Source: a virus
Lineage: Duplodnaviria > Heunggongvirae > Uroviricota > Caudoviricetes
Virus record (IMG/VR): IMGVR_UViG_2675903433_000022
Reading direction: 5' to 3' (one strand)
DNA length: 64,000 nt
The position numbers and the translations under genes were made by a program. How positions within the stretch are numbered: the stretch's first letter is position 1; every line of letters starts with the position of its first letter. Under the pieces are notes generated by a model. It saw only the letters and a program-made list of their open reading frames with translations. It ran no database searches and was not told the origin of the DNA. Shown one piece after another: positions 1,445 to 52,588 of this stretch.

Positions 1445-1648
1445 TTAAATAGAATTTTGAAGTTTTCCGATTAATGCGCTTAAACGTAAGTATTCACGTT
1501 TACGCTTGCAATCTCGCTTGTTGTTAAGCAAATCAGAAAACGTAAAATTTAATTGGTCGCGTTGCGCGATCAAATCATCGATTAATTCCAGTTTATAAGC
1601 GCGATACTTTGCGCGATATTCCGCGCGGATCTTGTCATAGCTGACCAT
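1445..1648 (-). CDS. hypothetical small basic protein (about 67 aa)
   Basis: ORF 1445..1693 trimmed to internal Met (MVSYDKI) preceded by AAAGGAG; the upstream part of the ORF overlaps a hairpin. Confidence 0.4.
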   Translation of the reverse strand: MVSYDKIRAEYRAKYRAYKLELIDDLIAQRDQLNFTFSDLLNNKRDCKRKREYLRLSALIGKLQNSI

Positions 1649-1666
1649 CTTTAAAGCTCCTTTAAA

Positions 1667-1685
1667 GCGCCCACTATGGGCGCTT
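1667..1685 (-). promoter_or_regulatory. intergenic hairpin, exact inverted copy of hairpin at 1171..1189
   Basis: AGCGCCCACTATGGGCGCT is the reverse complement of the 1171..1189 hairpin; sits between two minus-strand genes just upstream of an RBS. Confidence 0.4.
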
Positions 1686-1696
1686 GATTCCATTAA

Positions 1697-2347
1697 TTAC
1701 GCTTTGAAAGCATCAGCTAAATAATTGTAGAAATCATTTTTAATGAAGCGATATTGCTGAGTACCAGCTTTCGCACTCCCAGCTCCTTTGACTTTTTCAA
1801 CAAGTCCAAGACGTTCGCAAAGATTGATCAACTGGTTGGCTTGAGTATAGCCAGCGTCCAATTTAATTTCACACGCTTTTTTAGCTTCATTCATTAAATC
1901 GAAAACAGCGCCATTGGTGAACGTGTCGATCTCGTCGTTAATCATATCGATTAAAGCGAATACACGAGATCCAGACATATCAGCGATGGAATAAACGCAT
2001 TTACCAGATTTAATTGATTTAACCAGATAAACCAGTTTTTCCAGAGAATAACTATTAGTCATTGCATCACGGAAAAATACTTCTGGCGCTTGTTTGCTTG
2101 CTTTAATCGCATAGTAGAAAACAGAGCATAATTTTTCGTCTTCAACAGCGTTTACAACGTTGTTGATGAAGTAAGCAAGTTTAGTGGTCGCAGCTTGCAT
2201 ATTTGCTTTGTCTGCTTTAGTGTGCGTACCATTTTTATAATGTTCGTTATATGTTTGAGTTGCCAGATCTGCTTTTTCGCGCAGTTCATCGGATACAATG
2301 GAAGCAGCTTCAATGATGGATTTTTTAGAAATGATAATGTTAGCCAT
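1697..2347 (-). CDS. hypothetical protein (216 aa)
   Basis: Intact ORF; first gene of minus operon downstream of an AT-rich region at 2348..2580. Confidence 0.5.
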   Translation of the reverse strand: MANIIISKKSIIEAASIVSDELREKADLATQTYNEHYKNGTHTKADKANMQAATTKLAYFINNVVNAVEDEKLCSVFYYAIKASKQAPEVFFRDAMTNSYSLEKLVYLVKSIKSGKCVYSIADMSGSRVFALIDMINDEIDTFTNGAVFDLMNEAKKACEIKLDAGYTQANQLINLCERLGLVEKVKGAGSAKAGTQQYRFIKNDFYNYLADAFKA

Positions 2348-2585
2348 GATAATTTTTCCTTATGTAAATTTAAAATTTATTGTCGTTAGCGTCTTCGCTT
2401 TCGACGAGTTCAATTATCGATACACGAAAAAAGATTGCAAGTGTTTTTTTAAAATTTTTTGCAGGGATGAAAGTCCTAGAAATAAAAGCGAGATCGTCGA
2501 AGGTGTTCCCTAAATAAATAATCGATTCCGACTTTCGACCTTATATATATTTAGATTATTTGATTTATAGATATAAAGAAGTGAT

Positions 2586-2615
2586 GTGAAAAATAATAAC
2601 CGGACTTAGCCGGTT
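2586..2615 (-). terminator. rho-independent terminator
   Basis: AACCGGACTTAGCCGGTT hairpin with T-run on minus strand, just after stop of ORF 2631..2939. Confidence 0.5.
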
Positions 2616-2630
2616 ATTAACCTTATAGAT

Positions 2631-2939
2631 TTATTGAACAGACTCTACAGCCTTACGATTGGTGTCAAATAGCGCATCAACGAACTGTGCCGATGACTCG
2701 CTAGATTCGCAATCCAACATTGCCCGTTCTTCATTTGCCACTTTCTTACACAGTTCCACATTCTCACCTATCGCTTTTCCTGCTTTTACGGCTGCCGAAA
2801 ATTGATACATGCAAACTGATACATTCTGAGACGTTGAGCACACGTCATTCATCAGCGACTGAATGACAGGCTTATAGTCCATTGCATTTGCCGCAACTGA
2901 GCAAAGTAAAAATAATGGTGGTAACAATATCGATTTCAT
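2631..2939 (-). CDS. secreted cysteine-rich small protein (102 aa)
   Basis: N-terminal signal peptide MKSILLPPLFLLCSVAANA; six Cys in mature part. Confidence 0.5.
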   Translation of the reverse strand: MKSILLPPLFLLCSVAANAMDYKPVIQSLMNDVCSTSQNVSVCMYQFSAAVKAGKAIGENVELCKKVANEERAMLDCESSESSAQFVDALFDTNRKAVESVQ

Positions 2940-2942
2940 AAC

Positions 2943-3467
2943 TCAAAAAGGCAAAATTCGCTCAACCCAATCGAACAAAACAACTATTTTTCTACCGTTC
3001 TCGACACGTAGTGTAACCTGACAAGCATCTGCGCCTGCTGACACTCCCTCAATTTCACGGCCATCCGCCATGTACACCCTTATAGATTTGTTTGCTTTGT
3101 AGGCTTGGTTGCAAATTGCAAAAAAATCGCGGCGTGATGGCCGATTATCGACATAATCAGGGTGAACTGTTAGTCGACCTTTGAAATCGTGAGCGATACT
3201 GTCAACCACACCTGATTCAATTGTACTAATGCGTTCAAGTGGGAGCCTTATACGATTTTCTTTATCAAAAGGGGCTGGGCAAAGGTCAACTTTGTTACGA
3301 GATGGCATGAGGCCATAAACGTACATGCAAAACGCCTGGCCATCTTCGAGAGTGACCCTTACAGGAATTTGTTCTCTGCGCCAGAACATCAGTAGTTTTT
3401 CAACGTTAGTGTAATCTCGCGGCCAGAGTTCAGCTTGGATACCGTAGGTAATATCTTTGGTTGTCAT
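2943..3467 (-). CDS. hypothetical protein (about 175 aa)
   Basis: ORF 2943..3545 trimmed to internal Met (MTTKD) to avoid overlap with upstream gene; no motif recognised. Confidence 0.4.
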   Translation of the reverse strand: MTTKDITYGIQAELWPRDYTNVEKLLMFWRREQIPVRVTLEDGQAFCMYVYGLMPSRNKVDLCPAPFDKENRIRLPLERISTIESGVVDSIAHDFKGRLTVHPDYVDNRPSRRDFFAICNQAYKANKSIRVYMADGREIEGVSAGADACQVTLRVENGRKIVVLFDWVERILPF

Positions 3468-9059: not shown

Positions 9060-9083
9060 TCGGTCTGGGAGCTTATTTAAAGA

Positions 9084-9138
9084 CCTGCTTCTGTATATAT
9101 AAATAATAAGTAACTTATTAAATATATACGGAAGCAGG
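9084..9138. repeat. 55-bp near-perfect palindrome, copy 1
   Basis: CCTGCTTCTGTATATATAAATAATAAGT | AACTTATTAAATATATACGGAAGCAGG; a second copy at 42132..42186 is its reverse complement. Confidence 0.8.
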
Positions 9139-9254
9139 CTTCGTAAGACATGCCAGACCTAATTAAACACCCCAGAAAACAAGTTGGTTAGCAGATGCAG
9201 TAAACAAGTTGTTTTAGAGCGCATGGACGCGCTCTGTGTGTTTTAGAGGGATCT

Positions 9255-42020: not shown

Positions 42021-42131
42021 TATTGCATCTCTTAGCTACTGACTAATGCGTTCTATTTTACACATAAGTTTTTAATCAATTTAACAGGCTCAAAGTGTAG
42101 AGCTTCTGGGCGTCTAAGACGACAAGTTATG

Positions 42132-42186
42132 CCTGCTTCCGTATATATAAATAATAAGTAACTTATTAAATATATACAGAAGCAGG
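42132..42186. repeat. 55-bp near-perfect palindrome, copy 2
   Basis: Reverse complement of the element at 9084..9138. Confidence 0.8.
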
Positions 42187-42269
42187 TCTTTTAAAAGACA
42201 CCACCAGAACAACTCCCTTCCGTTTCCACTTCCAAAAACTGCCACCAGTCGCTATCATCCGCTCATTGT

Positions 42270-48931: not shown

Positions 48932-49218
48932 TCAATTTAACTTCTTGGAACTGGTGGTTGGCCACCTATTTCTTAGCGGCCGGAGTCGCATTCGCCTTTT
49001 ACGTAGGTCAGTTAGTCGTAAAACTGTTGCTGATTAAATTTGCTAGTCATAAACGTATCGATGATGGTCTGTGGCGTCTTGGCACCTTGGTGGAAACTCG
49101 CTACGGGCAACTTAAGGAGAACGAAACCATTACTATCCAAGCGAAACGATTCACTGCCACCATCACAAGAACACCTAGTCGTAGAGTGGCCTTGATCAAA
49201 AAAGTTACAACCGAATAA
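48928..49218 (+). CDS. membrane protein (96 aa)
   Basis: N-terminal TM WWLATYFLAAGVAFAFYV; ATGA overlap with previous gene. Confidence 0.4.
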   Translation: MINLTSWNWWLATYFLAAGVAFAFYVGQLVVKLLLIKFASHKRIDDGLWRLGTLVETRYGQLKENETITIQAKRFTATITRTPSRRVALIKKVTTE

Positions 49219-49226
49219 AAATACAA

Positions 49227-49250
49227 TGATAAGTATTTACTTACTTATCA
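49227..49250. promoter_or_regulatory. palindromic motif site TGATAAGTATTTACTTACTTATCA
   Basis: Strongly palindromic; at start of the 780-bp non-coding region before the tRNAs. Confidence 0.4.
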
Positions 49251-49608
49251 TTTATGTATAAGATGACTTTGTTTTCGTTGAGACGCGACTGTTTGAACTT
49301 AAATACAAGTGCAAACGAAGAAGTCTATCTGGCAGTAGCCTAATAAGCCAAACACCAGCGAGGTCAGTTTCCAGCCTCGTTACCGAAATGGGACACACTG
49401 AGCGAGTGTGATTGCAGAACGCAGGAGGGAACATTCATGTTCCCTCCGATGAAGTAACAGAATGGGCGGTTGGTATATTTTCAACTCCATATGACTCCCG
49501 GATTCTTAGCCACTGACCGCCCATCCTGTTACGTCATTTTGTTCAATTATGTCGTTTATACTGGGTTAAAAAGCGGCGACGTAGCCCGGCTGGTATGGTT
49601 AGCCAGCA

Positions 49609-49730
49609 CACAACGTTGAGGCCATTACATTTTTATCAATTCTAAGGTTCTATTCACAGAGATACCGGCGAGCGTTGATATGTAACATGTTGGGCAAACA
49701 TTCAATCGGAGTAGTGGCCTCAACGTTGTG
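49609..49730. repeat. 16-bp perfect inverted repeat pair (CACAACGTTGAGGCCA / TGGCCTCAACGTTGTG) with about 90-bp spacer
   Basis: Arms at 49609..49624 and 49715..49730; arm sequence related to the pair at 50464..50541. Confidence 0.6.
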
Positions 49731-49997
49731 AAGACAGGATTGTTGTGTAGGTTTAACCACTGTTGCCATTGGTGCCTGTTTTCACAACAAATGATTCCAT
49801 ACATCACATTGTATAAATTATAAAGTAGGTGCTGCCCTCAGAAACATCATCTACTTAAAGATTTTGCCTTCTACTATTGAGCGAAGTCGAAAGCGTCTGG
49901 CACTAACGGAAAGTGCAAGTAGCGGTGCGTTTCCTGGCAGAAACTAACACCGCCGCGATTGGCACTGTTGAGTAATAAATACAGGCAGTGCTGAATT

Positions 49998-50072
49998 GAT
50001 GGTGTAGCTCAGCGGTAGAGCAGTTGGCTGTTAACCAACTGGTCGGTGGTTCGAATCCACCCACCATCGCCA
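49998..50072 (+). tRNA. tRNA-Asn (anticodon GTT)
   Basis: Cloverleaf folded by hand: acceptor GATGGTG/CACCATC, D-stem GCTC/GAGC, anticodon loop CTGTTAA, T-loop GGTGG-TTCGAAT-CCACC, then G-CCA. Confidence 0.75.
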
Positions 50073-50074
50073 AT

Positions 50075-50150
50075 GCCGGTTTAGCTCAGTTGGTAGAGCA
50101 CCTGCCTTGTAAGCAGGATGTCAGCGGTTCGAGTCCGTTAACCGGCACCA
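50075..50150 (+). tRNA. tRNA-Thr (anticodon TGT)
   Basis: Acceptor GCCGGTT/AACCGGC, D-arm GCTC-AGTTGGTA-GAGC, anticodon loop CTTGTAA, T-arm AGCGG-TTCGAGT-CCGTT, A-CCA. Confidence 0.75.
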
Positions 50151-50374
50151 ATACAACGATAAGATCATTACGGTTAATCGTCGTTCATGTGCACAATGAC
50201 TGGTCGAAAGGTAGTGATCTTACCGTTGTGGTGGATTCGCAGACTGATGCGATAGCTTTCTTGGATGTTAGGGAAATGCGGCCGCAAATCTTCCCTTTCG
50301 CGAGCGGTGATCGTCCGTAGTCCTAATTGGCTGCACCGTATGCCGGAGATTCAGTACCGGCCACCACAACGGCC

Positions 50375-50461
50375 GGAGAGTAGGGAGCATGGTGCTCAAG
50401 CGGTCTTGAAAACCGTCCCATTGCGCAAGCGATGATGGTTCGATTCCATTACTCTCCGCCA
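50375..50461 (+). tRNA. putative type II tRNA-Ser (anticodon TGA), atypical
   Basis: Acceptor GGAGAGT/ACTCTCC, anticodon stem-loop GCGGT-CTTGAAA-ACCGT, long variable arm, T-arm GATGG-TTCGATT-CCATT, G-CCA; position 8 is A rather than U and D-stem is only 3 bp. Confidence 0.45.
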
Positions 50462-50463
50462 GA

Positions 50464-50541
50464 CACAGCGTTGAGCGGTTTGGCCTTTTAATCAACTCGA
50501 TTAAGACTCCGCTAACATAAACCAGACCGCTCAACGCTGTG
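50464..50541. repeat. 20-bp inverted repeat pair (CACAGCGTTGAGCGGTTTGG / rc) directly after tRNA-Ser
   Basis: Arms at 50464..50483 and 50522..50541, 19 of 20 matching; arms resemble the 49609/49715 pair (CACA[AG]CGTTGAG). Confidence 0.55.
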
Positions 50542-50615
50542 ATAGACAATTACGGCAGACGTTCTTAACCATAGCTTGCTAACATCCTAGCAACACTTTT
50601 TTCAGCGCAAAATTC

Positions 50616-50639
50616 AAAGGGGCTTCGGCCCCTTTTTTG
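50616..50639 (+). terminator. rho-independent terminator
   Basis: AAAGGGGC-ttcg-GCCCCTTTTTTG. Confidence 0.75.
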
Positions 50640-50681
50640 CAACTGAAAGAGTCAAGTCTACGAACTTTGTAGGAAGAAATA

Positions 50682-51484: not shown

Positions 51485-52588
51485 ATGAAAAATAGCTTTG
51501 ACAGAGCACGCGCTGCGGAGAACACCTCAAAAGAGGCGATTGAGTATCTCGAAAGAGCATCTCAAATGCAGGCCGTTATGATCTCGCAGGTTAGCAATGA
51601 CATGAGATTCTCGGACGCATTCATGTTATTCACTCGCTTATCTCTGCTGATAACCAGACGTCGGCCAGAGATCGCTGTTCATTGTATTTTGATACATGTT
51701 TTGCCGCACATTGCCGATGTAAAAGTAAGTGATATTAATAGGTTCATGGTGAACCAACTGGTCAACCCACTAATACTGGATGGCAAAATTGTTATGGGCC
51801 GCCGCGTTTTCTCTCTGATGAAGCAGTTCCTTAGCTGGTGCGCCTTCCAGGGGATGATCGACGTGTCACCGTTAAACGATATGTCACTTAACAAAGTTGC
51901 CGGTGGCGCAAAGCCCACACCTCGCGAGCGGAAGCTAACCGACGCAGAGGTATGGGTGTTCTGGAATATATGGGACTACTTCAATGTGTGTGCTGGTACA
52001 AAATGGGCGGCCAGGCTATGTCTTGTATCCGCAAGACGACCTGACGAAGTACTGCGGGCTAAAAAAAGTGAGTTCAATCTTAAGCGTGGGGTTTGGAATC
52101 AAGGCAAGAGGAACAAATCTGCCCGTGAGCATTCTCTGCCTTTAAGCTCATTAATGCGCACATGTATTGAAGAGTTGTTCGAATATGGTAAAGACAGCCA
52201 GTGGCTCGTGCCTTCGAATAAAAAAATCGGGAAAGACCTTCCTATGTCTAAAGTGGCAATAGCCCAGGCATTACGTCGTATTCTGGAACGACCAGAACTG
52301 ATGGAGCTTGAGCCATTTACACCCCGAGATTTGCGCCGTACTGCGCGTAGTTACTTCCCAGCATTAGGCATAAGCCAGGAGGTATCACGTAAAATCATGA
52401 ACCACAGTCTTGAGGGGATAGATCGGGTCTACGACCGGCACGATTATATGGACGAGATGCGAGACGCCTTAGAAAGTTTCTCGACGTACATCGCATCAAT
52501 CGTAGAGCAACCGGATTTAGACGAAATTGACCACAAATTTAAGGGAGATCGTCTATCAACAGAGCTTATTCGTGTAAATTTTTCATAG
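51485..52588 (+). CDS. int: tyrosine recombinase / integrase
   Basis: C-terminal catalytic residues in RDLRRTARS ... HSLEGIDRVYDRHDY context (R, H, R, Y). Confidence 0.75.
   Translation: MKNSFDRARAAENTSKEAIEYLERASQMQAVMISQVSNDMRFSDAFMLFTRLSLLITRRRPEIAVHCILIHVLPHIADVKVSDINRFMVNQLVNPLILDGKIVMGRRVFSLMKQFLSWCAFQGMIDVSPLNDMSLNKVAGGAKPTPRERKLTDAEVWVFWNIWDYFNVCAGTKWAARLCLVSARRPDEVLRAKKSEFNLKRGVWNQGKRNKSAREHSLPLSSLMRTCIEELFEYGKDSQWLVPSNKKIGKDLPMSKVAIAQALRRILERPELMELEPFTPRDLRRTARSYFPALGISQEVSRKIMNHSLEGIDRVYDRHDYMDEMRDALESFSTYIASIVEQPDLDEIDHKFKGDRLSTELIRVNFS

What the first reader, a model, noticed from the sequence alone, without database searches (positions are those of the whole stretch)
49227..50639. 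Structured non-coding region and tRNA cluster with repeated CACA[AG]CGTTGAG inverted-repeat arms
About 1.4 kb without credible ORFs holds three tRNAs (Asn-GTT, Thr-TGT, an atypical long-variable-arm Ser-TGA candidate) and several hairpins: a perfect 11-bp stem (GGAGGGAACAT/ATGTTCCCTCC, 49423..49447); an imperfect pair at 49457/49515; a 16-bp perfect pair at 49609/49715; a 13-bp pair ACCGTTGTGGTGG/CCACCACAACGG at 50222/50361; and a 20-bp pair right after tRNA-Ser. Two of the pairs share the arm CACA[AG]CGTTGAG with an internal CAACGTTG palindrome. With an integrase 1 kb downstream, this is a candidate attP region with arm-type sites, or a set of structured non-coding RNAs or processing signals for the tRNA transcript.
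Basis: seen in the sequence. Interest (0 to 1): 0.55.

Follow-up and report, generated by a model that had tools for sequence, protein, structure and literature searches.

The report
Phage RNA operon with headless tmRNA
The hairpins and tRNAs belong to one conserved phage operon of structured RNAs, and its first member looks like the message half of the bacterial ribosome-rescue RNA (tmRNA) without the tRNA half; this form sits unannotated in hundreds of enterobacterial phages, including P1.

Summary
ARAGORN finds three tRNAs, and four of the six hairpins with at least 20 pairs in the 64-kb window lie in this 1.4 kb. The attP reading fails: this SSU5-like phage-plasmid is extrachromosomal in all 246 E. 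coli genomes that carry it. The stems keep pairing through compensatory and G.U changes that fit only the + strand.

The region reads as a stable-RNA operon made of:
- a promoter-like site;
- a 177-nt tmRNA-like module (tag ANEEVYLAVA, two stops, no start codon, two covarying pseudoknots) that lacks any tRNA-like domain;
- 'cassettes' with stems of about 20 bp around variable inserts;
- tRNA-Asn and tRNA-Thr;
- a tRNA-like module with an insert in place of the anticodon arm;
- tRNA-Ser;
- a terminator.

The same parts recur, unannotated, in 766 of 50,697 phage records: P1, P7, HK620, Felix O1-like, Vi01-like, N4-like and others. Neither Rfam, ARAGORN nor the tmRNA surveys I could read describe a form without the tRNA-like domain.

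How the tag frame is used is unknown. Codon-level conservation suggests it is translated. Calling the stems processing and insulating helices is an inference. I rate this a new variant of a known kind, of high interest.

The parts
49225..49252 (.). Palindrome AATGATAAGTA-N6-TACTTATCATT overlapping the -35 hexamer. It may be an operator, or the end of the upstream gene's transcript.
   Evidence: I12. SSU5-like relatives keep the palindrome with paired changes, TAAGTA..TACTTA versus TAGGTA..TACCTA. No function was tested.
49236..49264 (+). Promoter-like site: TTTACT, 17-nt spacer, TAAGAT. It ends 6 nt before the conserved GUUUUCG.
   Evidence: Read directly. The same position holds TTGACA-N17-TAAGAT in Michonne, TTGACA-N17-TAGATT in L009, TTTACC-N17-TATAGT in L013 and TTTACT-N17-TATGAT in L006. 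The tool's consensus scan, which needs at least 9 of 12 matches, did not report it; the window's site matches 8 of 12.
49271..49447 (+). tmRNA-like module without a tRNA-like domain. It comprises the 5' GUUUUCG (49271-77); an upstream hairpin; the resume-type codon GCA and tag frame 49311-49340 (ANEEVYLAVA); stops TAA TAA at 49341-46 inside a hairpin (CUGG 49329-32 / CCAG 49355-58); pseudoknot a (CGAGG 49359-63 / CCUCG 49375-79, loop UUCC 49369-72 / GGGA 49390-93); pseudoknot b (CACACU 49394-99 / AGUGUG 49405-10, loop GCG 49402-04 / CGC 49420-22); and the terminal hairpin 49424-47.
   Evidence: ARAGORN reports no tmRNA.
49449..49537 (+). Hairpin cassette 1: stem of 21-22 bp with one conserved mismatch, insert of 37-45 nt.
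   Evidence: z = -5.1. It sits at the same position in SSU5-like relatives with compensatory changes, e.g. AACAGAAUGGG/CCCAUCCUGUU versus AACGAGAUGGG/CCCAUCUCGUU.
49609..49730 (+). Hairpin cassette 2: 20-bp stem CACAACGUUGAGGCCAUUAC / GUAGUGGCCUCAACGUUGUG, 82-nt insert.
   Evidence: z = -6.7. In alignment A2, 19 pairs are 98.5% paired, two pairs change on both sides, and three pairs change on one side to G.U.
49725..49788 (+). Hairpin GUUGUGAAGACAGG / CCUGUUUUCACAAC. It shares GUUGUG with the 3' arm of cassette 2.
   Evidence: z = -3.3. Relatives have different stems at the same position: CGTTGTGGCCACGG/TCGTGGCCACAACG and GTTGTGAAAGCAGG/CCTGGTTTCACAAC.
49998..50072 (+). tRNA-Asn (GUU).
50075..50150 (+). 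tRNA-Thr (UGU).
50148..50234 (+). Hairpin cassette 3: 20-24 bp stem, 39-nt insert. Its 5' arm starts in the CCA of tRNA-Thr.
   Evidence: z = -4.8. Its arms GAUAAGAUCAUUAC/GUAGUGAUCUUAC are homologous to the widespread GGUAAGAGCAUUG/CAGUGCUCUUACC arms. It is absent from phage Cyrano.
50228..50368 (+). tRNA-like module. It has an acceptor-type stem GUGGUGG/CCACCAC, a D-arm UCGC-AGACUGAU-GCGA, an insert of about 90 nt where the anticodon arm would be, a T-like arm GCCGG-AGAUUCAGUA-CCGGC, and an A after the stem. No CCA is encoded and the 3:70 pair is G:C. In the precursor the stem can extend to 50222-50372.
   Evidence: The D-stem covaries (GCGC/GCGC, GCGU/ACGU, UCGC/GCGA) and so does the T-like stem (GCCGG/CCGGC, GCAGG/CCUGC, GUCGG/CCGAC). 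P7 and D6 carry copies about 95% identical. The module is absent from Cyrano. Neither ARAGORN nor Rfam calls it.
50375..50461 (+). tRNA-Ser (UGA): type II, with a short D-loop and an encoded CCA.
   Evidence: The same gene is annotated in D6 with the note that tRNAscan-SE did not call the amino acid.
50464..50541 (+). Hairpin cassette 4: 20-bp stem CACAGCGUUGAGCGGUUUGG / CCAGACCGCUCAACGCUGUG, 38-nt insert. It starts 3 nt after the CCA of tRNA-Ser.
   Evidence: z = -9.9. Relative L017 has CACAGCGCTGAACGGTTTGG/CCAGACCGTTCAACGCTGTG, a compensatory variant.
50619..50638 (+). Intrinsic terminator: GGGGC-UUCG-GCCCC followed by six U.
   Evidence: Read directly. Rfam gives a partial hit there to the terminator end of an unrelated sRNA model. 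The tool's scan did not list it.

Best explanation
Window 49236-50638 is one + strand operon of stable, structured RNAs in an SSU5-like phage-plasmid. It is not an attachment site.

Transcription most likely starts at the conserved GUUUUCG (about 49271) and ends at the terminator at 50619-38. The transcript carries, in order:
1. A 177-nt tmRNA-derived 'message' module: a 10-codon SsrA-like tag frame with no start codon and a double stop inside a hairpin, followed by two H-type pseudoknots. It has no acceptor stem, no T-arm and no CCA.
2. Hairpin cassettes, in which a stem of about 20 bp from one homologous family encloses a variable insert.
3. tRNA-Asn and tRNA-Thr.
4. A tRNA-like module whose anticodon arm is replaced by an insert.
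5. tRNA-Ser, then a last cassette.

I infer that they let each module fold on its own and mark where the polycistronic precursor is cut. Two helical turns is the size of an RNase III substrate, and several stems abut tRNA ends. The shared CACAAC/GUUGUG ends also serve as joints at which modules are gained, lost and swapped between phages.

Shown here: the elements, their conservation, their covariation and their strand. Inferred: the transcription start, the processing enzyme, and any use of the tag frame in translation. I put RNase III processing specifically at about 0.4.
For: Replicon and strand:
- The region is 98% identical to phages Cyrano and CMS-2020a.
- The tRNAs lie on the + strand.
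- One-sided changes in cassette 2 give G.U on the + strand; they would be A.C on the other strand.
- The widespread arm pair GGUAAGAGCAUUG/CAGUGCUCUUUCC keeps a U.G and a U.U at fixed positions.

tmRNA-like module:
- It matches E. coli ssrA only across the tag, from position -3 to the double stop, and gives sub-threshold tmRNA hits in Rfam over the same stretch.
- All tags have 10 codons: AN[DE]xx[YF]LAVA, ANDDLMMVAA (P1), ANDDLMMAAA (P7), ANDDYKLAAA, ANDDLMLAAA and ANDDVVLMAA.
- Identical peptides are encoded by different codons. ANDNTFLAVA, for example, is GCA AAC GAT AAT... in one copy and GCT AAT GAT AAC... in another.
- Pairwise codon differences are 403 synonymous to 651 non-synonymous in the tag frame, against 58/877 and 98/771 in the other two frames.
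- No start codon is conserved upstream.
- The pseudoknots form 19 pairs that are 99.4% paired. Five pairs and 24 cells change on both sides, against at most 1 in every slid control. The P1 version keeps the same architecture with unrelated sequence.

Cassettes:
- Folding z-scores run from -3.3 to -9.9.
- SSU5-like lineages keep them at the same positions with compensatory changes.
- 59 distinct inserts sit between near-constant arms in other phages.

Modularity: Cyrano lacks exactly cassette 3 plus the tRNA-like module, and the junction falls at ACAAC motifs. P7 and D6 have further cassettes in the same grammar.

Operon ends: the promoter hexamers hold the same position in five lineages, and the terminator can be read.

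Distribution: 766 phage records match, and the rows listed carry no RNA annotation (almost all 'none').
Against: - I found no expression data, so transcript ends and processing are inferred.
- The consensus promoter scan reports nothing in the region at its threshold.
- Near-perfect inverted repeats fold on either strand, and cassette 1 is slightly more stable on the - strand (-38.3 versus -34.6 kcal/mol). Strand assignment therefore rests on the G.U pattern and the tRNA orientation.
- The DNA itself could also form these hairpins.
- No known mechanism translates a tmRNA-type frame without a tRNA-like domain. No Ala-identity (G3:U70) tRNA-like partner lies in the window or next to any copy.
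- The codon test is partly circular, because the collection scan fixed many first and second codon positions.
- The Rfam tmRNA scores are far below the gathering scores.
Confidence: 0.72

Rival explanations
1. The region is the attP of the downstream tyrosine integrase. The repeated arms are arm-type binding sites and the crossover core lies at a tRNA 3' end.
For: A tyrosine recombinase lies at 51485-52588 (PF00589, E = 2.9e-10). tRNA genes are common attB targets (general knowledge).
Against: None of the 257 copies in 246 complete E. coli genomes is chromosomal. Host chromosomes match 49990-50645 only as generic tRNA similarity of about 79%. The repeats are long hairpin arms kept by compensatory and G.U changes, not short reiterated protein sites. 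Homologous arrays sit in lytic Felix O1-like, Vi01-like and N4-like phages, in the HK620 late leader and in the P1 ban leader, all away from any integrase.
Confidence: 0.03
2. The arms act at the DNA level. They are terminal inverted repeats of small mobile cassettes (MITE-like or attC-like) or recombination joints, and the RNA structure is incidental.
For: Modules come and go between near-identical genomes at CACAAC motifs. The inserts are hypervariable between constant arms. Unrelated cargo, an ibs/Sib toxin-antitoxin, is inserted in one array. The AAC...GTT ends faintly recall integron attC ends (from memory).
Against: The one-sided changes are G.U on the transcribed strand only. The arms abut tRNA ends and always have the tRNA orientation. 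No transposase or integron integrase accompanies the arrays. The motifs do not fit the attC consensus RYYYAAC/GTTRRRY (read from the sequence). This rival is compatible with the main explanation as a second role of the arms.
Confidence: 0.12
3. The non-tRNA parts are decaying remnants of tRNA and tmRNA genes picked up from hosts, with no present function.
For: Some cassette inserts keep canonical T-arms, which suggests descent from tRNAs. The tmRNA-like module lacks the part needed for the known tmRNA function.
Against: The module is present in 766 phage records from unrelated families. The pseudoknots and stems covary. The 10-codon frame stays intact with synonymous changes. The promoter position is conserved.
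Confidence: 0.06
4. The hairpins are ordinary transcription terminators or attenuators between tRNA genes.
For: They are stable stem-loops in a non-coding region. One true terminator ends the region at 50619-38.
Against: None of the cassette stems is followed by a U-run. The scan's only internal 'terminator' is the D-arm of the tRNA-like module. The loops are 37-82 nt, far larger than terminator loops.
Confidence: 0.03

Closest known systems
tmRNA (SsrA; Rfam RF00023 and clan CL00001)
   Same: Both have a 10-codon tag frame starting with GCA (Ala) and no start codon, preceded by an A/U-rich AUAAAU-type context. The tag has the proteobacterial pattern AND(E/D)...(L/V/A)A(A/V)A. The stop codons sit in a hairpin loop. 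Pseudoknots flank the frame.
   Different: The phage module has no acceptor stem, no T-arm, no CCA and no long P2 helix. It has two downstream pseudoknots rather than three. ARAGORN does not call it, and Rfam scores are 14-26 bits against gathering scores of 47-84. Nucleotide similarity to E. coli ssrA is limited to the tag.
Coding piece of two-piece (permuted) tmRNA of alpha-proteobacteria and others
   Same: Both are separate RNAs that carry the tag frame and pseudoknots. The best sub-threshold Rfam hits are to the permuted and beta-proteobacterial models.
   Different: The known coding piece supplies the 5' acceptor strand and pairs with an acceptor piece (from memory). Here the RNA appears to start at GUUUUCG. 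I found no acceptor piece with Ala identity in the window or beside any copy.
CDS-less (tRNA-like-domain-only) tmRNAs: mycobacteriophage DS6A, jakobid mitochondria, some plastids
   Same: These are also half-tmRNAs, and one of them is carried by a phage (PMC4131195; PMC11915505).
   Different: They are the mirror image. They keep the tRNA-like half and lose the tag, while this family keeps the tag and loses the tRNA-like half. Neither survey reports such a form.
Processing stalks of rRNA operons and RNase III sites of phage T7/lambda transcripts
   Same: Both are long helices, about two turns, formed by sequences flanking a functional RNA within a polycistronic precursor (from memory). The cassette stems are 20-22 bp.
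   Different: Cleavage was not tested here. The enclosed inserts are only 37-82 nt in this window.
Small stable RNAs in the phage T4 tRNA gene cluster (species 1 and 2, also called RNA C and D)
   Same: Both are non-tRNA structured RNAs co-located and co-oriented with phage tRNA genes (from memory).
   Different: I could not compare sequences, because these RNAs are not in the libraries available here. I know of no report of a tag frame in them.
GOLLD and ROOL large RNAs of phages and prophages
   Same: Both are ornate non-coding RNAs found next to phage tRNA genes (from memory).
   Different: No Rfam match reached E <= 1 in the window or in seven related loci. This region is a string of small modules, not one large fold.

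Membership tests
tmRNA | tRNA-like domain: acceptor stem with G3:U70, T-arm, 3' CCA | tested here: not met
   ARAGORN finds no tmRNA in the window or in 33 representative loci, though it does find E. coli ssrA. The window has no T-arm with a CCA apart from the three tRNAs. Near any copy, the only G3:U70 acceptors found belong to ordinary tRNA-sized genes.
tmRNA | Tag reading frame without a start codon that begins at an Ala resume codon and ends in an A-rich C-terminus | tested here: met
   The window's tag is ANEEVYLAVA followed by TAA TAA. Sixteen different 10-codon tags were seen, with synonymous variation.
tmRNA | Pseudoknots flanking the tag frame | tested here: met
   Two H-type pseudoknots lie downstream: 19 pairs, 99.4% paired, 5 pairs changed on both sides. 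The upstream element is a hairpin or a possible pseudoknot and is not resolved.
tmRNA | Reaches the Rfam gathering score of a tmRNA model | tested here: not met
   Scores are 14-26 bits against gathering scores of 47-84.
tmRNA | Aminoacylation, SmpB binding and trans-translation | not testable with these tools
   These need biochemistry, or mass spectrometry of tagged proteins.
phage attP | Integrated copies flanked by attL/attR in host chromosomes | tested here: not met
   There are 257 places in 246 E. coli genomes, all on plasmids.
phage attP | A core identical to a host attB, typically a tRNA 3' end | tested here: not met
   Chromosomal matches to 49990-50645 are generic tRNA similarity of about 77-85% over 54-125 nt in the rows listed.
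phage attP | An adjacent tyrosine or serine recombinase | tested here: met
   PF00589 matches 51485-52588. This is necessary but not sufficient, since plasmid prophages use such enzymes for dimer resolution (general knowledge, e.g. P1 Cre).
tRNA (the three genes) | Cloverleaf called by ARAGORN and by the Rfam tRNA clan | tested here: met
   The Ser gene is atypical: it has a short D-loop and scores best on the tRNA-Sec model at 46.6 bits against a gathering score of 47.
RNase III processing stalk | Cleavage of the helix by RNase III in vivo or in vitro | not testable with these tools
   Only the length (20-22 bp) and the flanking position are shown.
Y RNA / YrlA | Match to the Rfam YrlA model, and a Ro (Rsr) partner | tested here: not met
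   The only hit, 24.1 bits against a gathering score of 69, spans the junction between the tRNA-Asn T-arm and the tRNA-Thr D-arm. It is an artefact of two adjacent tRNAs.
integron attC | RYYYAAC ... GTTRRRY ends together with an IntI integrase | tested here: not met
   The ends are CACAAC...GTTGTG(G), which break the consensus at two positions each (read). No integron integrase lies in any neighbourhood examined.

The most novel reading that the evidence does not exclude
The module is the template half of a split trans-translation system. Phages of Enterobacterales would supply their own tag frame (...LAVA, ...MVAA, ...LAAA) without a tRNA-like domain. The frame would be loaded onto stalled ribosomes with the help of host SmpB/tmRNA or one of the co-encoded tRNA-like modules, so that the phage rewrites what ribosome rescue appends to proteins during infection. 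Alternatively it acts as a decoy that blocks rescue. The neighbouring cassettes and the tRNA-like module would then be a general phage device for expressing many small RNAs on tRNA-like or long-stem scaffolds.
Probability: 0.2. Interest if true: 0.95.

Novelty: new variant of a known kind. Interest (0 to 1): 0.8.

Why it matters
tmRNA has been catalogued exhaustively, and every known form has the tRNA-like half. Forms that lost the tag are known, but the two tmRNA surveys I could read report none that lost the tRNA half.

If this family is what it looks like, it is a tag-encoding RNA with covarying pseudoknots and a frame kept at the codon level. It is present in about 1.5% of sequenced phage genomes, including the model phages P1, P7 and HK620 and the therapy-relevant Felix O1-like, Vi01-like and N4-like groups. 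That poses a concrete question: how, if at all, is a tmRNA-type frame used without a tRNA-like domain? The question can be tested directly with P1 genetics.

The finding also has three practical consequences:
- The 'empty' 0.5-1.5 kb gaps in phage tRNA clusters and late leaders are organised arrays of structured RNAs built from a shared grammar of stems.
- This bears on phage annotation. Spurious ORFs are currently called there, such as 'C-type natriuretic protein' in SSU5.
- It bears on how phage tRNA transcripts are processed, and on the search for RNA-based counter-defence.

Tried and rejected
- Rfam, both at gathering scores and at E <= 10, on the window and on seven related loci. Apart from tRNA and one Sib RNA, no family reached its gathering score. 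The YrlA, miRNA and plastid hits are chance matches or tRNA artefacts.
- A search for a hidden tRNA-like domain: ARAGORN on all representatives, a T-arm plus CCA scan of the whole window, and a scan of all loci for acceptor/T-arm modules with G3:U70. Only ordinary tRNAs turned up.
- Reading the tag in the other frames, or from the AUG/GUG that overlaps the resume codon. That start is not conserved (AUG, GUG, CUG, CAG) and those frames show 6-11% synonymous differences against 38% in the tag frame.
- A MAFFT alignment of all 103 copies misaligned the pseudoknot strands between subfamilies. I therefore counted pairs on an equal-length subset and by fixed offsets. My offsets for two helices of the SSU5 subfamily were off by one. 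Those two tallies are void; the pairs can be read.
- The idea that the ...LAVA end makes a protease-resistant tag. I dropped it because LVA-type ends are good ClpX degrons (bioRxiv 10.1101/2024.01.29.576913).
- Nine literature searches found no description of these elements. The P1 genome paper could not be opened.
- The integron attC, retron, CRISPR-repeat and spliceosomal-site resemblances of the arms (CAG|GUAAG ... CUCUUUCCAG) were considered and set aside as coincidental.
Full report
**1. What is there**

ARAGORN finds three tRNA genes in the whole 64-kb window, all on the + strand: Asn-gtt 49998-50072, Thr-tgt 50075-50150 and Ser-tga 50375-50461. Rfam agrees. The Ser gene scores best on the tRNA-Sec model, at 46.6 bits against a gathering score of 47, but its anticodon is UGA and it has a long variable arm.

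As RNA the hairpins fold with z-scores from -3.3 to -9.9 against dinucleotide shuffles. In a scan of the whole window for hairpins with at least 20 pairs (G.U allowed, one mismatch), four of the six distinct hits lie between 49454 and 50543. No ORF in the region is credible.

**2. The replicon, and the attP idea**

The region is 98% identical to Escherichia phages Cyrano and CMS-2020a and about 79% identical to Salmonella phage SSU5. The window therefore comes from an SSU5-like phage-plasmid.

In 5,426 complete E. coli genomes, the 771 nt upstream of the tRNAs occur in 246 genomes at 257 places. All are on plasmids and none on a chromosome. One plasmid is 100% identical over 49990-50645.

The ORF at 51485-52588 is a tyrosine recombinase (PF00589). 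However, there are no integrated copies, and host chromosomes match the tRNA part only as generic tRNA similarity. The homologous arrays described below also sit in lytic phages and in operon leaders far from any integrase. I reject the attP reading.

**3. A tmRNA-like module without a tRNA-like domain (49271-49447)**

A sensitive blastn of 49200-50000 gave 317 phage records. The matches outside the SSU5 group all fall on about 110-150 nt of unannotated DNA in very different phages.

Read in frame, 49311-49346 is GCA AAC GAA GAA GUC UAU CUG GCA GUA GCC UAA UAA. This spells ANEEVYLAVA followed by two stops, next to E. coli's ANDENYALAA. Rfam gives only sub-threshold hits of the beta-proteobacterial and permuted tmRNA models over exactly this stretch. 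A local alignment with E. coli ssrA covers the tag from -3 to the double stop and nothing else.

Together with annotated phages and species-representative genomes, I saw these tags, always 10 codons long:
- ANEEVYLAVA, ANEEMYLAVA, ANDNQYLAVA, ANDEQFLAVA, ANDDQFLAVA
- ANEDTYLAVA, ANEDAYLAVA, ANEDSYLAVA
- ANDNVFLAVA, ANDNTFLAVA, ANDTQYLAVA
- ANDDLMMVAA (P1), ANDDLMMAAA (P7)
- ANDDYKLAAA, ANDDLMLAAA, ANDDVVLMAA

.

The same peptide is written with different codons. ANDNTFLAVA is GCA AAC GAT AAT ACG... in IMG/VR copies and GCT AAT GAT AAC ACG... in Kuttervirus SP1. Pairwise codon differences are 403 synonymous to 651 non-synonymous in the tag frame, against 58/877 and 98/771 in the other two frames. 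This test is partly circular, because the scan pattern fixed several first and second codon positions. The BLAST-derived copies are free of that bias.

No start codon is conserved. The triplet overlapping the resume codon is AUG, GUG, CUG or CAG in different lineages and is out of frame.

Downstream lie two H-type pseudoknots. On 18 distinct equal-length copies their 19 pairs are 99.4% paired, with 5 pairs and 24 cells changed on both sides. Every slid control gives at most 1. The other subfamilies keep the same pairings with other sequences:
- Pseudoknot a, stem 1: CAAGG/CCUUG, CAGGG/CCCUG, CGAGG/CCUCG, UGAGG/CCUCA.
- Pseudoknot a, loop pairing: CCGA/UCGG, CCAG/CUGG, CCAA/UUGG. In the window's subfamily: UUCC/GGGA, UUCC/GGAA, CUCC/GGAG.
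- Pseudoknot b, stem 1: GCACU/GGUGU, GCAGU/GCUGU, GCAUU/GAUGU, GUACU/GGUAU. In the window's subfamily: CACACU/AGUGUG and CAGACU/AGUCUG.

. P1 keeps the architecture with unrelated sequence.

Relatives have GGAGAGGGCAUG/CAUGCCCUCUCC, GGAUAGGGCAUG/CAUGCCCUAUUC and others at the same place.

What is missing is the whole tRNA-like half. ARAGORN calls no tmRNA in the window or in 33 representative loci, although it calls E. coli ssrA. The window has no T-arm followed by CCA other than the three tRNAs. No acceptor/T-arm module with the alanine identity pair G3:U70 lies near any copy, apart from ordinary tRNA-sized genes.

**4. The hairpins are members of one stem family (the 'cassettes')**

In lambdoid, sipho and other phages the module is flanked by units with a fixed form: an outer stem, an inner stem, and a hypervariable insert of 40-110 nt. 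The outer stem is CACAAC/GUUGUG, AACUAUC/GAUAGUU or CGAAAUC/GUUUUCG. The inner stem is GGUAAGrGCAyUG/CAGUGCUCUUUCC. I counted 59 distinct units. The inner stem carries a fixed U.G and a fixed U.U. Some inserts contain canonical T-arms.

The window's arms are diverged members of this family:
- GUUGAGGCCAUUAC/GUAGUGGCCUCAAC
- GAUAAGAUCAUUAC/GUAGUGAUCUUAC
- GUUGAGCGGUUUGG/CCAGACCGCUCAAC
- cassette 1 (49449-49537), with its single mismatch

They keep the U.G at the same place.

Within the SSU5-like group the cassettes hold their positions while the stems change in a compensatory way. For cassette 2, 19 pairs are 98.5% paired. Two pairs change on both sides, and three change on one side to G.U or U.G, which pair only on the + strand. 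The arms are therefore RNA helices on the tRNA strand or, less likely, hairpins in + strand single-stranded DNA.

**5. The tRNA-like module (50228-50368)**

- an acceptor-type stem GUGGUG(G/A)/CACCAC;
- two nucleotides;
- a D-arm, GCGC-AGGCUGAU-GCGC in most phages and UCGC-AGACUGAU-GCGA here, with GCGU/ACGU also seen;
- an insert of 40-190 nt where the anticodon arm should be;
- a T-like arm, GCCGG-AGWUCAGCA-CCGGC, with GCAGG/CCUGC and GUCGG/CCGAC variants;
- an A after the stem, and no encoded CCA.

. The 3:70 pair is G:C, so the module does not have alanine identity.

The module sits directly before tRNA-Ser here, in P7, in D6 and in Klebsiella phage Carvaje. Phage Cyrano, otherwise 98% identical, lacks exactly cassette 3 plus this module: its tRNA-Thr and tRNA-Ser are 8 nt apart, and the junction falls at ACAAC motifs. 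The modules therefore behave as units that are gained and lost.

**6. Operon boundaries**

A site reading TTTACT-N17-TAAGAT (49236-64) ends 6 nt before the conserved GUUUUCG. Four other lineages have sigma-70-type hexamers at the same place, including TTGACA-N17-TAAGAT in Michonne. The tool's scan, with its threshold of 9 of 12 matches, does not report the window's site, which matches 8 of 12.

In arrays without a promoter, the module is preceded by the 3' arm of a cassette ending ...CUUUCCA. The region ends with GGGGC-UUCG-GCCCC followed by six U (50619-38).

Elsewhere the arrays sit in strongly transcribed places:
- between qut and the late terminator of HK620;
- after the major head gene of Carvaje;
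- inside the tRNA cluster of Felix O1-like and Moogle viruses;
- in the C1-controlled ban-operon leader of P1 and P7, after the annotated 'dicF-like region'.

**7. Distribution, and whether it is already known**

The HK620 copy of the module finds 766 of 50,697 phage records. They include Kuttervirus, Gamaleyavirus, Felixounavirus, lambdoid and P22-like phages, Klebsiella and Erwinia phages and P1-like plasmids. Nearly every row listed reads 'none' for annotation. The HK620-type array is in prophages of 154 of the 5,426 E. coli genomes, unannotated in all but two of the rows listed. Among species-representative genomes the hosts are Escherichia, Kluyvera, Buttiauxella, Pseudocitrobacter, Pantoea and Rosenbergiella.

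The 2014 tmRNA survey found phage ssrA only in mycobacteriophages and Bacillus phage G, with DS6A as a form that has only the tRNA-like domain (PMC4131195). The 2025 database update scanned RefSeq viruses and reports CDS-less forms, but nothing that lacks the tRNA-like domain (PMC11915505). My other searches found nothing. I could not read the P1 genome paper, so I cannot exclude an earlier remark there.

**8. How it most likely works**

Shown here: a set of conserved, covarying RNA structures on the tRNA strand, arranged as modules between a conserved promoter position and a terminator.

Inferred:
- One precursor is made.
- The helices of about 20 bp let each module fold independently and give a double-strand-specific nuclease its entry sites. 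RNase III is the obvious candidate, by analogy with rRNA operon stalks and T7 early RNA (established knowledge, not tested here).
- RNase P and the 3' processing enzymes release the tRNAs, and perhaps the tRNA-like module.

For the tag module, the codon-level conservation says the frame is read. The absence of a start codon says it is read in the tmRNA manner. The absence of a tRNA-like domain says a partner is needed. I could not identify one, and I give the split trans-translation reading about 0.2.

The C-termini (...AVA...VAA...AAA) resemble ClpX degrons, and LVA ends are recognised by ClpX. I therefore make no claim that the tags resist degradation.

**9. Verdict**

The finding is real. 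The attP interpretation is wrong, and the 'structured RNA / processing signal' interpretation is right but too modest.

The tmRNA membership test fails on the defining tRNA-like domain. I therefore describe the module as tmRNA-derived and tmRNA-like, not as a tmRNA. It is a new variant of a known kind, embedded in an undescribed modular array.

Noticed in passing
window 9081-9141 and 42131-42187: Two near-identical palindromes, AGACCTGCTTCTGTATATAT...ATATATACGGAAGCAGGCTT and GCCTGCTTCCGTATATAT...ATATATACAGAAGCAGGT, lie 33 kb apart. They are among the few hairpins with 18-20 pairs outside the studied region. They could be repeated operators, terminators or replication/partition sites.
   Followed up: no
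L127 (phage P1, NC_005856) 486-660; L125 (P7) 741-930: The model phages P1 and P7 carry an unannotated copy of the tmRNA-like module (tags ANDDLMMVAA and ANDDLMMAAA). It sits in the C1-controlled ban-operon leader, directly after the annotated 'dicF-like region' and before a CACAAC-AGGTAAGGGCGC cassette and trnA/trnT.
   Followed up: partly
L143 (Escherichia phage St11Ph5, N4-like) 1320-2800: A 1.4-kb stretch without annotated genes holds a 'tRNA-Ala(cgc)' with a U3:A70 pair and no CCA, the tmRNA-like module (tag ANDDVVLMAA), and cassettes. It also holds at least two tRNA-like units with canonical T-arms and encoded A-CCA ends (UCCGGUG...CGCCGGA-A-CCA and UACCAGU...ACUGGUA-A-CCA) that ARAGORN does not call.
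   Followed up: partly
L055 1600-1748 (IMG/VR prophage): A Sib antitoxin RNA (Rfam SIB_RNA, 107.8 bits), presumably with its ibs toxin, is inserted between the tmRNA-like module and the next cassette of a lambdoid late-leader array. The arrays therefore also collect unrelated small-RNA genes.
   Followed up: no
window 50375-50461; L126 (D6) 1821-1907: The phage tRNA-Ser(UGA) has a very short D-loop. It scores higher on Rfam tRNA-Sec (46.6 bits, gathering score 47) than on the general tRNA model. The D6 record notes that tRNAscan-SE would not name its amino acid. Close copies occur in many unrelated phages, and the hit list includes records named as Campylobacter phages.
   Followed up: partly
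window 50040-50100: The sub-threshold Rfam YrlA (Y RNA-like) hit is produced by the T-arm of tRNA-Asn followed by the D-arm of tRNA-Thr. Any two closely spaced tRNAs can mimic that model.
   Followed up: yes
SSU5 record NC_018843 41644-42359; Cyrano CYRAN_40 (L001 5022-5234): Public records place protein annotations over this RNA region: 'C-type natriuretic protein' and 'hypothetical protein' over the tmRNA-like module and cassettes, and a minus-strand ORF across tRNA-Thr and tRNA-Ser. These are probably spurious calls.
   Followed up: partly
L142 (Salmonella phage SP1, Kuttervirus) 1475-3020: A 1.5-kb stretch without annotated genes runs from an HNH endonuclease gene to tRNA-Met. It begins with the tmRNA-like module, whose GUUUUCG motif is duplicated. 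It continues with several T-arm-containing units and long-stem cassettes, e.g. CACAUCUUAGAGGACAUUG...CAGUGUCCUCUAAGAUGUG around a T-arm.
   Followed up: partly
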